Shown here: in pieces, positions 24,001-27,000 of the stretch | Layout of the letters: each line of letters starts with the position of its first letter | Numbering within the stretch: position 1 is the stretch's first letter | Origin: an uncultured Reyranella sp. | Lineage (GTDB): Bacteria; Pseudomonadota; Alphaproteobacteria; Reyranellales; Reyranellaceae | Assembly (NCBI GenBank): GCA_964415585.1 | Contig: CAYQAY010000001.1 | Coordinates: 70,008 to 134,007, forward strand | Reading direction: 5' to 3' | DNA: 64,000 nt | Made by a program: the position numbers

Positions 24001-27000
24001 TTATCCCCGACGGTGGATGAGTGCGGTCCGTTAGACAGATTCCGAAGGAATCTGAGTTAGAGAAGTTACGGCCGCTCCAACCTGTTGAACGCCAAAGACT
24101 TTTGGGCGATTGCGGTCCCCGATAGCACGAGGATCGGGTCCCCGATGGCACGATAGTCGCCGTCCCCGATGGCACGAGGGGAGTCACAGCTTGTCCCCAA
24201 GACGCGCGGTTTGGCGCAATGTCGCCGGGTCACGCAAAACCGGTGTGAAGGTGAGGCGCTCCGCGCCGCGCGGACCACGCTCGACGACCAGCCGGTAGCC
24301 CGGCAGCGTCTGGCGGCGCACGATCTCGCGCACGTCGTAGGCGAAGTGTTTTAGCGGCGAGAGGCTGCCGGATTTGGCGTGCAAATGCGGAAAGTCGAAA
24401 CTCCAGCCGCCGGCCTGGCGACCGCCGTGCTTGCGCACGACGCGGTAGAGCCAGCGCTCCAACCCACCCGTCAGATCGAAGTATGCCCGGTCGATCGTGA
24501 GCACGAGCGCATCGTCCAGCACGCCGGCATAGAACCAATCGGGCAGGATCAGCTCGAGCCCGAGCGGCCGGCCGTTCGGATCGGCCGTCTCCTTCCATTC
24601 GTTGATCCAGGAGAAGCGGTGACGCCGCCGTTCTGCCGGCTGGCGGATGGAGGTCAGCACACTGGTCGATTGCAGCCGGTCGAGCGCGGCCTTCAGGCGA
24701 TCGTAGTCCCTCGAGCCAGTGCCGCGGCCGACGAAGGTCAGGATCTCGTAGGGAGTCGCGGCCATCAGACGGGACGTCTTCAACCCGGCGTCCCTCGCCT
24801 CCACGATCTGGGAGGCGGCCCAGATCAGCACGTCCGCATCCCAGATCGTTGCCATGCCGTGGTCCGCCACAGCCTCGACCCGGATGGCGACGGCGGCGGT
24901 GCGGTAATCGATCGGCAGGACGCGTTTCGACTTGGCGAGCGAGAAGAATGGATAGGCCATGAGGTCCTGCGCATCGCGCGGCGCGAGGTCGCCCGGCAGT
25001 GCCCGGAACAGGTCGAGCTGGTCCCGCTCGCTGGCCCGCTTATGCCGAGAGGTCACGCTCCACCTCCGATCAGCGCCGAACCCGGGCGGCATAGGCGGGC
25101 GGAGTCGCCATGTGTCGTTTGGCCGGCAGCACGGTTCCGGCGCCGGGATCGGAGGTCGAGGTCTTGGCGCCACGATCGGCCCATGCCTTGAGGTCTTCCA
25201 CGGCATAGACGACGCGGCCGCCGATCTTCCGGTAGGTCGGGCCCGTGCCGTAGGTCCGATGCTTCTCCAGGGTGCGCCCCGAGAGGCTGAGAAAGCGTGC
25301 GGCTTCAGGCGTGCGCAGATAGCGTGGCGGCAGACCGGCGGTGGGATCGGGCATGCGAGAGGCTCCGTGCTCCTGGCGAGAGCCGTCGGCAGCGACGGCG
25401 GATCGACGGTCACGGTGGCGGAGAACGCCGGTGCAGGTGGATGACGGACTCGCGGAGCATCGGCGGCGACACCCCGGCGGGCGGCGCAGATGCGCTATCG
25501 GCCGCCGCGCAGCAGCTTGCGGTAGCCGCCTTTCATGGTGACGGTGGCGTCTTTGACGAGCCGGATCGTCTGGCCGCGAATGGAAGATATCTTCCACGGA
25601 TACGCTGCGACGGCGCTTGGTCCGTAGAGGGCCTGGGCGATCTCGCGATAGCTTGCCCCGGCAAGATGACCATCGAGGGCGCGGACCATCAGGGCGAGGC
25701 GCCGGTGCAAGCGGGCCGTGATCGTCCATGCACGCGGAACGGGGCCTGCCGGGCGACCGTCGAGATGCCGCCGAAGGCGCAGCAGTCCGGCGAGTCGGAG
25801 CAGGACATCATCGTCCAGAGGAACGAGGGCGGCTATCTTTACAGCAGGCCGCAATCCTCTTAGCCACAAGCGGTGGGTGCCGTCACGGTCCTGCAGGACG
25901 ACATGATGGCCGTCGGGCCCCAGGATGGCGGCGACGCCAGACAACCAATCGAAGCGACGTGCGCTCGTGAAGCTATCCGGCGCCGGAACGAGAATCACAC
26001 TGTGTGGCACCAACTCCGGCCGCCAGATCGGCGAAACGTCGGCGGCCGGCAGCTCAGGATCGTAGGCGAAAACAAAGCCCCCATCGTTCGGCGATGTCTA
26101 TGGCGTCCCGGCTCGTTGCTTCGACAATCCGAGCAAAGTCTTTCTGATAGTCGGGATTGCGCCGCAAGAACTCCCACGCCAGTTCCGCGCGGTCGAGCTG
26201 CCTCAGATATCCGTAGTCGCTCGGCGATCTCCAGTCCGGTCTCCGTGGCATACGTTACCTCCACGTTCCAAGAACCTTCACGATGAGCGATGTCGACATA
26301 TTCGCGGGAGAGCGGTCGTGGAAGTCCCCGGAGGTCGAACGCGCGATGCACCGACTGCAGCAGAGCGGCGGTCTTGCAATTTTGCAGGTCAGTGCAGAAG
26401 CGGGCGCAGCAGGTGTCGATGGCCGGCTTCCATCATCCAACGGGCGCGCGCCAGATGGCTGTCATGGACCAGGCGCGCACGTTTCGGCTCACGCGCCGGA
26501 TCGAGACCGAAGATGATCCGCACGGCTTCGCGCCAATCGGCACCCTCCTCCGCAGCGTCCAACAAGCGGATGTATGTCGCGAGATGCCGCTCGTCATAGG
26601 GCGTGAGCTTCGAGCTGTCGGGTGGGCGATCGTCGAAAGCAGGTATGCTCATGGTCAGGTTCGTTTCACTTGCACAATGCCGAACGCGACGCCGGTCGGA
26701 GGATTGCCACAACACTGCCCGTATTGTCGATGCGAATTGGCCATCGCGTGCATCAACTGGTGCATCACGTCCCGCCTCTTGCATCTCTGGTTTGTGCAGA
26801 ACGCTCTCTCGAGGCGGATCGCATATGCTGCACCATCGACCTCGATCTTCAGGTGAATACATATTATAGTTGATAAACTTATAATGTGTAAACTGCGACC
26901 AGTTGCGCATGGATATGCGCAAGCTGGTCGGACGGAACTTTGGCCGGTTGCGTCGCGCGAAGGGCCTGACTCAAGAGGAGATCGAAGCTCGTTCCGGGTT

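What the first reader, a model, noticed from the sequence alone, without database searches (positions are those of the whole stretch)
25495..26251. FseA-like ICE activator is encoded in two frames and needs a +1 ribosomal frameshift (or is a pseudogene)
Seen:
- ORF 26054..26251 (first-base positions = 1 mod 3) encodes a DUF6499-like N-terminal part ending ...DIAERWGLCFRLRS*.
- ORF 25495..26013 (positions = 0 mod 3) encodes the DUF2285/HTH part.
- Moving from the first frame to the second on the minus strand is a +1 shift.
- The second frame is open from just after a TAG at about 26098-26100. The only possible shift window is therefore about 44 nt (26054-26097), minus strand 5'-ACATCGCCGAACGATGGGGGCTTTGTTTTCGCCTACGATCCTGA-3'. 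It contains a T-rich run, CTTTGTTTTCGC.
- Read in +1, it continues ...FAYDPELPAADVSPIWRPELVPHSVILVPAP, the natural continuation of single-ORF homologues as I remember them.

Established: in ICEMlSymR7A of Mesorhizobium, the excision activator FseA is produced from msi172-msi171 by programmed +1 frameshifting, which limits activation of transfer.

Inference: the same low-efficiency translational gate operates here.
Basis: partly seen in the sequence, partly recalled or inferred. Interest (0 to 1): 0.75.

Follow-up and report, generated by a model that had tools for sequence, protein, structure and literature searches.

The report
FseA activator gene with +1 frameshift
This is an ordinary member of the FseA family of regulators that switch on transfer of a mobile DNA element; like most published family members, its gene is split into two reading frames at a conserved site where the ribosome must slip forward one base.

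Summary
A 65-codon ORF (26251..26054, minus strand; DUF6499/PF20109) ends ...ERWGLCFRLRS*. The +1 frame is open from after TAG 26100-26098 to 25495 and encodes DUF7012 + DUF2285.

It is also already published. The mRNA reads UGG GGG CUU UGU UUU CGC. That is the G-rich UGGGGG (WGL) plus UUUC slip site described for Mesorhizobium FseA (msi172-msi171). Jowsey et al. 2023 report the site in about 61% of 4709 homologues.

- The 1.2-1.9 kb around the site is 100% identical in five other assemblies, so a sequencing error is unlikely.
- Of 88 relatives (40-86% identity), 78 change frame by +1 at the same codon and 10 are single ORFs.
- Synonymous variation places the frame change within 13 nt around UUU C.
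- The non-preferred GGG and UUU codons are kept in 73/75 and 71/75 split genes.
- The fused product aligns end to end with single-ORF homologues, and its predicted fold matches RovC.
- Neighbours are QseC-like, QseM (PDB 7UQT, E 5e-18), RdfS (PDB 8DGL), TraF, SLT, relaxase and a Trb secretion system.

Verdict: a new member of a known kind, of low interest.

The parts
25495..26251 (-). fseA homologue as a whole. The predicted trans-frame product is 251 aa (...ERWGLCF|AYDPELPA...), with DUF6499, DUF7012 and DUF2285 domains.
   Evidence: Pfam hits on the fused product. End-to-end alignment with 257-260 aa single-ORF homologues at 49-64% identity. AF2 model whose only significant PDB match is RovC 6XZ5.
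26054..26251 (-). Frame-0 ORF (msi172-like), 65 aa. It holds the DUF6499 domain with the LAWEFLRRN motif and is preceded by GGAGG 6 nt before the ATG.
   Evidence: PF20109, E 5.6e-24. The RBS is conserved in 22 relatives.
26078..26082 (-). Shine-Dalgarno-like GGGGG inside the codons UGG GGG (Trp-Gly), ending 6 nt before the UUU codon.
   Evidence: The Gly wobble base is G in 73/75 split relatives but in only 2/9 loci then called single-ORF (one of them, L057, turned out to be split). GGG makes up only 18% of Gly codons in this window. The literature describes UGGGGG and a conserved upstream G-rich region (PMC10359603, PMC4755241).
26068..26071 (-). Slip site UUU_C. tRNA-Phe would move from UUU (26071-26069) to UUC (26070-26068), and the next codon read is GCC (26067-26065).
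   Evidence: TTT C is present in 71/75 split relatives. TTT makes up only 25% of Phe codons here. Stops in L009/L010 (+1 frame) and L004 (frame 0) bracket the site. Synonymous variation of Leu in frame 0 and of Asp-Pro in the +1 frame puts the switch within 13 nt. UUUC is the published slip sequence (PMC4755241).
25495..26067 (-). +1-frame part (msi171-like): linker AYDPELPAADVSPIWRPE, the DUF7012 middle domain and the basic DUF2285 helix-turn-helix domain (pI 11.6).
   Evidence: No ATG/GTG/TTG lies in this frame upstream of the conserved Asp-Pro, either in the window or in 36/71 relatives.
26389..26652 (-). qseM homologue (87 aa, DUF2285 only), the antiactivator expected to bind the DUF6499 part of FseA.
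   Evidence: phmmer hit to PDB 7UQT 'Quorum sensing master protein', E 4.7e-18. Called as a gene in four public contigs.
26909..27130 (+). qseC-like HTH_3 (Cro/C1-type) regulator, divergent from qseM.
   Evidence: PF01381 at E 1.6e-17. The same arrangement is seen in public contigs.
26863..26892 (-). Sigma-70-like promoter (TTTACA-18-TATAAT) pointing at qseM and fseA, in the AT-rich qseC-qseM intergenic region.
   Evidence: 11/12 match; 0.4 such sites expected in shuffles. This is a consensus match only.
25070..25354 (-). rdfS homologue (94 aa, HTH_17 excisionase-type), the expected target gene of FseA, lying directly downstream.
   Evidence: PF12728. phmmer hit to RdfS PDB 8DGL, E 1.2e-8. It is adjacent to fseA in all related loci that extend far enough.
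25355..25494 (-). Conserved fseA-rdfS intergenic region, the candidate rdfS promoter and FseA-binding region. It includes the hairpin GCCGTCG-N4-CGACGGC at 25382-25399.
   Evidence: Conserved blocks GGGGTG, CTCCGTCATCC and TTCTCCGCCACCGTG in 9 loci. Inverted repeats are listed. The FseA box itself could not be assigned.

Best explanation
The region is the fseA gene of an integrative or plasmid-like conjugative element of the ICEMlSymR7A type.

Most ribosomes that start at ATG 26251 read 65 codons and stop at UGA 26056-26054. This yields a short DUF6499-only protein, the msi172-like product.

A minority slip forward one base while tRNA-Phe sits on UUU (26071-26069) and re-pair on UUC. They then continue in the +1 frame to 25495. 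The result is a 251-aa protein, ...RWGLCF-AYDPELPA..., in which DUF6499 is joined to the middle domain and the DNA-binding DUF2285 domain.

By homology, this full-length FseA is a dimeric activator of the rdfS promoter directly downstream (rdfS-repA-like-DUF2840-traF-SLT-rlxS). It thereby triggers excision and conjugation. The QseM encoded just upstream blocks it by binding the DUF6499 part.

The inefficient frameshift would keep activator levels low, so that transfer starts in few cells.

Shown here: the two-frame anatomy, conservation of the site, selection in each frame, colinearity with single-ORF homologues, and the partner genes.

Inferred from the R7A experiments: that the shift really occurs, that it is inefficient (4-13% in R7A), and that the product activates rdfS.
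For: - **Anatomy and domains:**
- **Published site:** UUUC slip with an upstream G-rich region (PMC4755241). WGL is encoded by UGGGGG, and the +1 site is conserved in about 61% of 4709 homologues (PMC10359603). The window reads UGG GGG CUU UGU UUU CGC.
- **Same +1 frame change in relatives:** at query residues 58-61 in 12 of 13 genome loci. With L057 and L076 reassigned, 78 of 88 loci in total show it.
- **Site logo:** TGG GGG YTN NNN TTT C(G/C)N in 71/75 split loci. The Gly wobble is G in 73/75 split genes against 2/9 loci called single-ORF.
- **Frame switch pinned down:** Leu codons (CTT/CTC/CTG/TTG/TTA) vary synonymously in frame 0. GAY-CCN (Asp-Pro) varies synonymously in the +1 frame, 7 nt after the C of UUUC. 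The phase of highest column entropy moves from col mod 3 = 2 to col mod 3 = 0.
- **Bracketing stops:** a +1-frame UGA two codons before UUU in L009/L010, and a frame-0 UGA two codons after it in L004.
- **Codon choice:** GGG (18% of Gly) and TTT (25% of Phe) are non-preferred codons in this window.
- **Independent assemblies:** five other assemblies are 100% identical over 1.2-1.9 kb across the site.
- **Junction matches single-ORF proteins:** P0023 has RWGLSFACNPDL. The family profile aligns across the junction to RovC 6XZ5. The AF2 model of the fused protein hits only RovC (E 2.8e-4, 238 columns).
- **Partner genes:** QseM, RdfS, and TraF, SLT, relaxase, TraG and Trb.
Against: - No protein or reporter data exist for this element. 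The frameshift and its efficiency are inferred from the Mesorhizobium R7A homologue.
- I could not align the R7A DNA itself.
- The usual +1 stimulators are only partly present. The frame-0 codon after UUU is CGC, the commonest Arg codon here, not a stop or a rare codon.
- The GGGGG lies 6 nt before the slip codon, not 3 nt as in prfB.
- No significant RNA structure was found (z -0.10).
- The FseA box upstream of rdfS could not be identified.
- The AF2 model is of moderate quality (mean pLDDT 64). The junction falls in a low-confidence loop.
Confidence: 0.88

Rival explanations
1. Pseudogene or sequencing/assembly error: a single-base insertion has broken a formerly single fseA ORF, and no functional protein is made.
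For: Ten of 88 relatives are single ORFs, so an uninterrupted form exists. L090 differs from the split form essentially by TTT C -> TTC C. Real extra frame breaks do occur in the family (L057 and L076).
Against: - The same split occurs at the same codon in 78/88 loci down to 40% identity.
- Both halves keep full-length Pfam matches.
- Codon-phase selection is seen on each side of the site.
- Non-preferred GGG and TTT codons are conserved only where the gene is split.
- Five other assemblies carry identical sequence.
- The literature documents the split form as the majority state (PMC10359603).
Confidence: 0.03
2. A genuinely split gene. The DUF6499 peptide and the DUF7012-DUF2285 protein are made separately, by independent initiation or by termination-reinitiation, and act as a non-covalent pair with no frameshift.
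For: Gene callers annotate the downstream part alone with various start codons, giving 166-202 aa. A TTG at 26013 and a GTG at 26010 exist in the +1 frame. In the FseA models described in PMC10359603, DUF6499 packs against DUF2285, so association in trans is conceivable.
Against: - The 18 codons between the slip site and the first start codon (AYDPELPAADVSPIWRPE) are conserved as protein in the +1 frame. They align with single-ORF homologues and with RovC.
- In the window and in 36/71 relatives, no ATG/GTG/TTG lies in that frame upstream of the conserved Asp-Pro.
- The frame-0 stop lies 3 to 85 codons after UUU in different loci, so there is no conserved stop-start junction.
- In R7A the fused gene is far more active than the native pair, and the product was detected as one polypeptide (PMC4755241).
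Confidence: 0.05
3. Transcriptional slippage: RNA polymerase drops one U in the T-run, so that some mRNAs encode the fused protein in one frame.
For: The window has a T4 run (UGUUUUC) at the site. Slippage and ribosomal frameshifting would give the same protein.
Against: The run is only 3 T in 61 of 71 canonical relatives and 4 T in the other 10. Known programmed transcriptional slippage needs runs of about 6-9 or more identical bases (established knowledge; reviewed in PMC5009743). The conserved upstream GGGGG is a ribosome-directed signal, not a polymerase-directed one. The R7A work assigns the event to the ribosome (PMC4755241).
Confidence: 0.03

Closest known systems
FseA (msi172-msi171) of ICEMlSymR7A, Mesorhizobium japonicum/loti R7A, and its homologues curated by Jowsey et al. 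2023
   Same: - Same three-domain protein (DUF6499 with AWEFLRRN, middle domain, DUF2285).
- Same two-ORF layout, with a +1 shift just after the conserved WGL.
- Same signals as described in print: UGGGGG followed by the UUUC slip.
- Same partners: QseM (E 4.7e-18 to the R7A QseM structure), a QseC-like regulator and RdfS.
- Same downstream traF-SLT-rlxS genes and a Trb-type secretion system.
   Different: - The gene order is compact and co-directional here: qseC <-> qseM -> fseA -> rdfS. In R7A, fseA lies in a traI2-msi172-msi171 operon driven by a TraR tra box, qseM is convergent to it, and rdfS is elsewhere.
- No lux/tra box was found upstream of fseA here, although a LuxR/LuxI pair lies 19 kb away.
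- A repA-like (RPA) gene and a DUF2840 gene sit between rdfS and traF.
- The QseM homologue is neutral (pI 7.0), not acidic as reported for R7A.
- Nothing has been tested experimentally for this element.
RovC of Yersinia (PDB 6XZ5), type VI secretion activator
   Same: It has the same overall fold and domain order in one polypeptide. The family profile and the AF2 model both match it across the junction.
   Different: RovC is a single ORF with no frameshift. It is hexameric, controls a secretion system rather than a mobile element, and is only about 19% identical.
prfB (release factor 2) programmed +1 frameshift
   Same: A +1 slip of a P-site tRNA on a YUU_N type codon, stimulated by an upstream Shine-Dalgarno-like GGGGG within the coding sequence.
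   Different: In prfB the A site holds a UGA stop, the Shine-Dalgarno-like element is 3 nt upstream, and the shift is efficient and autoregulated. Here the A-site codon is the common CGC, the spacer is 6 nt, and the shift is expected to be inefficient, with no known feedback.

Membership tests
FseA family (DUF6499-DUF2285 activators of ICE excision and transfer) | N-terminal DUF6499 domain with the AWEFLRRN motif | tested here: met
   PF20109 at E 5.6e-24. The sequence reads ELAWEFLRRNPDY. A25-W26-E27-F28-L29-R31 are invariant in alignment A1.
FseA family (DUF6499-DUF2285 activators of ICE excision and transfer) | C-terminal DUF2285 extended-turn helix-turn-helix domain with a positively charged surface | tested here: met
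   PF10074 at E 5.2e-33. Residues 142-251 have pI 11.6 and net charge +13. The surface itself was not modelled in detail.
FseA family (DUF6499-DUF2285 activators of ICE excision and transfer) | Full-length colinearity of the trans-frame product with single-polypeptide homologues | tested here: met
   100% query coverage at 49-64% identity to 16 single-ORF proteins. RovC 6XZ5 is matched by the profile and by fold (E 2.8e-4).
FseA family (DUF6499-DUF2285 activators of ICE excision and transfer) | Conserved +1 frameshift site: UGGGGG (WGL) followed by the UUUC slip sequence | tested here: met
   The window has UGG GGG CUU UGU UUU C at 26083-26068. The same pattern is in 71/75 split relatives. The site is defined in PMC4755241 and PMC10359603. 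A direct nucleotide alignment with R7A was not possible.
FseA family (DUF6499-DUF2285 activators of ICE excision and transfer) | A frameshifted single polypeptide is actually produced at low frequency | not testable with these tools
   This needs a reporter assay or mass spectrometry. It is inferred from R7A, where the rate is 4-13% (PMC4755241).
FseA family (DUF6499-DUF2285 activators of ICE excision and transfer) | Cognate DUF2285-only antiactivator QseM, with a divergent QseC-type regulator | tested here: met
   The 87-aa protein at 26652-26389 matches PDB 7UQT at E 4.7e-18. The HTH_3 gene at 26909-27130 is divergent. Binding was not tested.
FseA family (DUF6499-DUF2285 activators of ICE excision and transfer) | Target rdfS promoter with an FseA box (inverted hexamers 15-16 bp apart, next to the -35 element) | tested here: inconclusive
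   An rdfS homologue lies directly downstream (8DGL, E 1.2e-8) behind a conserved 140-nt region. No inverted hexamer pair with 15-16 bp spacing could be assigned with confidence. The reference box sequence is only in a figure that is not held.
FseA family (DUF6499-DUF2285 activators of ICE excision and transfer) | Location on a conjugative element (relaxase, coupling protein, type IV secretion system) | tested here: met
   RlxS-like DUF3363 relaxase, TraG, TrbB/E/L/F/G/I-type genes, TraF S26 peptidase and SLT. No integrase was seen in the ORFs scanned, so ICE versus plasmid is not settled.
FseA family (DUF6499-DUF2285 activators of ICE excision and transfer) | Quorum-sensing (TraR/tra box) control of fseA transcription, a feature of R7A but not of all family members | tested here: not met
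   LuxR (5328-6053) and LuxI (about 6075-6783) are present, with the palindrome CCTGTGCACTCGCACAGG at 6072-6089. No copy with 3 or fewer mismatches lies near fseA or qseM. The literature says many FseA/QseM elements lack quorum-sensing genes (PMC4755241), so this does not exclude membership.
prfB-type programmed +1 frameshift | In-frame stop (or rare) codon in the A site at the shift position | tested here: not met
   The frame-0 codon after UUU is CGC, the commonest Arg codon in the window (578 of 1368 Arg codons). The frame-0 stop lies 3-85 codons downstream in relatives.
prfB-type programmed +1 frameshift | Shine-Dalgarno-like element 3 nt upstream of the slip codon | tested here: not met
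   GGGGG is present and conserved, but it ends 6 nt before UUU. The prfB spacing is from established knowledge.

The most novel reading that the evidence does not exclude
In this compact layout a strong qseM promoter reads through qseM into fseA with no terminator between them. The frameshift may then do more than lower FseA levels. It could fix a three-way ratio on one transcript: QseM, an abundant frame-0 DUF6499 peptide that carries the QseM-binding helix and could soak up QseM, and rare full-length FseA. The locus would then act as a self-contained threshold switch without quorum-sensing input. Separately, a small clade of relatives (L081, L097-L099) keeps the split but lacks UUUC, which hints at a second, undescribed slip site.
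Probability: 0.1. Interest if true: 0.5.

Novelty: new member of a known kind. Interest (0 to 1): 0.2.

Why it matters
For annotation, it matters that this locus is one gene, not a small orphan ORF plus a truncated DUF2285 protein. Public gene calls skip the 65-codon ORF and give the second part arbitrary starts.

For biology, it marks the master switch of a conjugative element that also carries defence-like cargo.

It does not open a new question. The frameshift gate, its signals and its wide distribution were published in 2015 and 2023.

Tried and rejected
- **Original paper not available.** The 2015 PNAS paper (PMC4386382) is not held. The R7A site was taken from later papers by the same group.
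- **RNA structure.** Folding 25985-26100 gave a z-score of -0.10. No stimulatory structure is proposed.
- **Rfam.** A scan of 24000-28000 gave only sub-threshold chance hits.
- **Lux/tra box upstream of fseA.** The near-palindrome CCTGCAAAATTGCAAG at 26373-26388 is unique in the window but no better than chance (20 of 100 shuffles). It is conserved only among the closest relatives. The LuxI-proximal box has no second copy. Quorum-sensing control is therefore not claimed.
- **FseA box.** Several 6-7 nt inverted repeats occur in the G+C-rich rdfS upstream region. None combines 15-16 bp spacing with conservation. The EMSA primers in the supplement show only a loose resemblance to the window sequence. 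This is left open.
- **tblastn class for L057.** The 'single ORF' call was wrong: L057 has the canonical shift plus a second break.
- **Structure prediction.** It gave only a moderate model (pLDDT 64). I used it only for the RovC fold match.
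Full report
**1. The observation**

On the minus strand, an ATG at 26251 is preceded by GGAGG. 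It opens a 65-codon ORF that ends ...DIAERWGLCFRLRS with UGA at 26056-26054.

The +1 frame has a TAG at 26100-26098 and is then open to the stop at 25497-25495. It reads TSPNDGGFVFAYDPELPAADVSPIWRPELVPHSV.... The third frame is unrelated. The two frames overlap only in 26097-26054.

The short ORF is a complete DUF6499 domain (PF20109, E 5.6e-24). The +1 part is DUF7012 plus DUF2285/RovC_DNA-bd (PF10074, E 5.2e-33). This is not a chance pair of ORFs.

**2. What the literature already says**

- In ICEMlSymR7A, FseA is made from msi172-msi171 by a +1 programmed frameshift. The slip sequence is UUUC, where tRNA-Phe moves from UUU to UUC. A conserved G-rich region lies upstream, and efficiency is 4-13% (PMC4755241).
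- Jowsey et al. 2023 (PMC10359603) curated 4709 FseA homologues from alpha-, beta- and gammaproteobacteria. [quoted passage not shown] It also notes that such genes are routinely mis-annotated.
- The window reads UGG GGG CUU UGU UUU CGC (26083-26066). This has exactly these elements.

**3. Independent comparative test**

A genome scan gave 15 loci and a metagenome scan gave 80.

- **Frame change.** tblastn with the fused protein shows the N- and C-terminal halves in frames f and f+1, meeting at query residues 58-61, in 12 of 13 genome loci. Overall this held in 76 of 88 loci with both halves.
- **Reassigned loci.** L076 and L057 have the same shift plus a second break. That makes 78 split and 10 single-ORF.
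- **Identity.** All relatives above 63% identity are split.
- **Site pattern.** Anchored on the Trp codon, 71 of 75 split loci read TGG GGG YTN NNN TTT C(G/C)N.
- **Gly wobble.** It is G in 73/75 split genes but in only 2/9 loci that classed as single-ORF (one of the two, L057, proved to be split).
- **Codon preference.** GGG and TTT are minority codons in this 65% G+C window, at 18% of Gly and 25% of Phe. Their conservation therefore reflects selection on the RNA sequence.

**4. Where the frame changes**

- The Leu codon after Gly varies among five synonymous forms in frame 0.
- Seven nucleotides after the C of UUUC, GAY-CCN (Asp-Pro) varies only at the third positions of the +1 frame.
- The phase of highest column entropy moves from col mod 3 = 2 upstream to col mod 3 = 0 downstream.
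- L009 and L010 carry a +1-frame UGA two codons before UUU. L004 carries a frame-0 UGA two codons after it.

Together these place the switch in a window of about 13 nt centred on UUU C. The predicted junction, RWGLCF|AYDP, matches single-ORF proteins such as P0023 (RWGLSFACNPD). It also aligns through to RovC.

**5. Rivals**

- **Sequencing error.** This is excluded in practice. Five other assemblies carry 100% identical DNA over 1.2-1.9 kb across the site. They are two GenBank assemblies, one ENA assembly, one Logan assembly and a Reyranella MAG.
- **Pseudogene.** This is contradicted by the conservation described above.
- **Independent or re-initiated translation of the second ORF.** This is unlikely. 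The 18 codons between the slip site and the first possible start (TTG 26013) are conserved as protein. In the window and in 36 of 71 relatives there is no start codon in that frame upstream of the conserved Asp-Pro. The frame-0 stop lies anywhere from 3 to 85 codons downstream.
- **Transcriptional slippage.** This is unlikely because the T-run is only 3 nt in 61 of 71 relatives.
- **RNA structure.** No RNA structure stands out (z -0.10), and Rfam has no match.

**6. Protein and partners**

- The fused 251-aa sequence aligns end to end with 257-260-aa single-ORF homologues.
- An AF2 model has mean pLDDT 64 and pTM 0.60, and the junction lies in a low-confidence loop. It shows a helical N-domain, a beta middle domain and a helical C-domain. 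Its only significant PDB match is RovC 6XZ5 (E 2.8e-4, 238 columns).
- Upstream lies an 87-aa DUF2285-only protein that matches the R7A QseM structure 7UQT at E 4.7e-18.
- Divergent from it is a QseC-like HTH_3 gene. A strong sigma-70-like promoter faces qseM.
- Directly downstream is an RdfS homologue (8DGL, E 1.2e-8).
- After it come RPA, DUF2840, S26 TraF, SLT, a DUF3363 relaxase, TraG and a Trb-type secretion system.
- The order qseC <-> qseM -> fseA -> rdfS is kept in all relatives whose flanks reach far enough.

**7. How it most likely works**

Most ribosomes make the 65-aa DUF6499 peptide. A few slip +1 at UUU_C and make full-length FseA. By homology, FseA binds upstream of rdfS and turns on excision and transfer genes, and QseM blocks it through the DUF6499 domain.

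The anatomy, conservation and partners are shown here. The shift itself, its low efficiency and the promoter activation are inferred from the R7A experiments.

**8. Differences from R7A**

- The regulatory genes form one compact co-directional block.
- No tra/lux box is detectable upstream of fseA, although a LuxR/LuxI pair with a perfect palindrome sits 19 kb away.
- The QseM homologue is neutral rather than acidic.
- The FseA box could not be assigned in the conserved 140-nt rdfS leader.

These are variations in wiring, not in the frameshift device.

**9. Verdict**

The feature is a textbook-conforming member of a family in which this recoding event is already documented in thousands of genes. 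Novelty: new member of a known kind. Interest: 0.2.

Noticed in passing
L081 446-460, L097 360-385, L098 468-502, L099 788-813 (around the WGL codons): Four FseA relatives at 45-48% identity are split by +1 at the same place but lack UUUC. Their site is UGGGGG UUG AAU UGU ACY, with a +1-frame UGA straight after GGGGG. The shift must therefore occur within AAU UGU ACC, where no obvious slippery codon exists. This may be a second type of site, or these may be decaying genes.
   Followed up: partly
L068 and L069, about 1640-1700: These two relatives are single ORFs through an indel upstream of the WGL motif. RRWGLSF is therefore read out of frame as GVGGSRF before rejoining ...LVDP. They look like natural fused alleles that bypass the frameshift.
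   Followed up: partly
window 25382-25399 (minus strand, 28-45 nt before the rdfS-like ATG at 25354): Hairpin or palindrome GCCGTCG-N4-CGACGGC in the conserved fseA-rdfS intergenic region. L009 and L012 keep it with changes on both sides (GCCGCCG/CGGCGGC). It could be a 5'-UTR hairpin or an operator.
   Followed up: partly
window 25070-25354 versus 25495-26251, and loci L002-L014: The RdfS-like protein is 88-99% identical among nine loci (77-81% in L013 and L014) in which the neighbouring FseA is only 40-77% identical. The activator evolves much faster than its target gene.
   Followed up: no
window 5328-6783, palindrome at 6072-6089: A LuxR-type regulator (Autoind_bind + GerE) and an autoinducer synthase lie next to the end of the trb cluster. 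A perfect lux-box-like palindrome, CCTGTGC-ACTC-GCACAGG, sits in front of the synthase. No second copy is present in the window.
   Followed up: partly
L016-L019 (public contigs identical to window 25300-27199): Automatic gene calls in all four contigs omit the 65-codon DUF6499 ORF and start the DUF2285 part at an internal codon (167 aa). L016 also has an IS66-family insertion between the SLT gene and the relaxase gene that the window lacks.
   Followed up: yes
window 39809-63889 (minus strand): A block of defence-like cargo. It comprises an SMC/AAA_15 ATPase with a metallophosphoesterase; two UvrD-helicase/PD-(D/E)XK nuclease proteins, one carrying an M78 peptidase domain; and a DEAD-box helicase, a BrxC/D-like ATPase (PF10923, E 6e-150) and a TerB_N/TerB_C protein with a peptidoglycan-binding domain.
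   Followed up: no
window 26252-26388 and the alignment: The qseM-fseA spacer holds a strongly conserved motif, GCATCGCGCGTTC ... CTTCC, in 22 relatives. No terminator-like site lies between the two genes. Whether fseA has its own promoter or is read through from qseM is open.
   Followed up: no
window 28241-39528: Typical ICE accessory genes lie upstream of the regulatory block: DUF736, RadC, a YAcAr/SLOG protein, a Toprim-DUF7146 protein, a 1466-aa Strawberry-notch-like helicase and a ParB-like protein.
   Followed up: no
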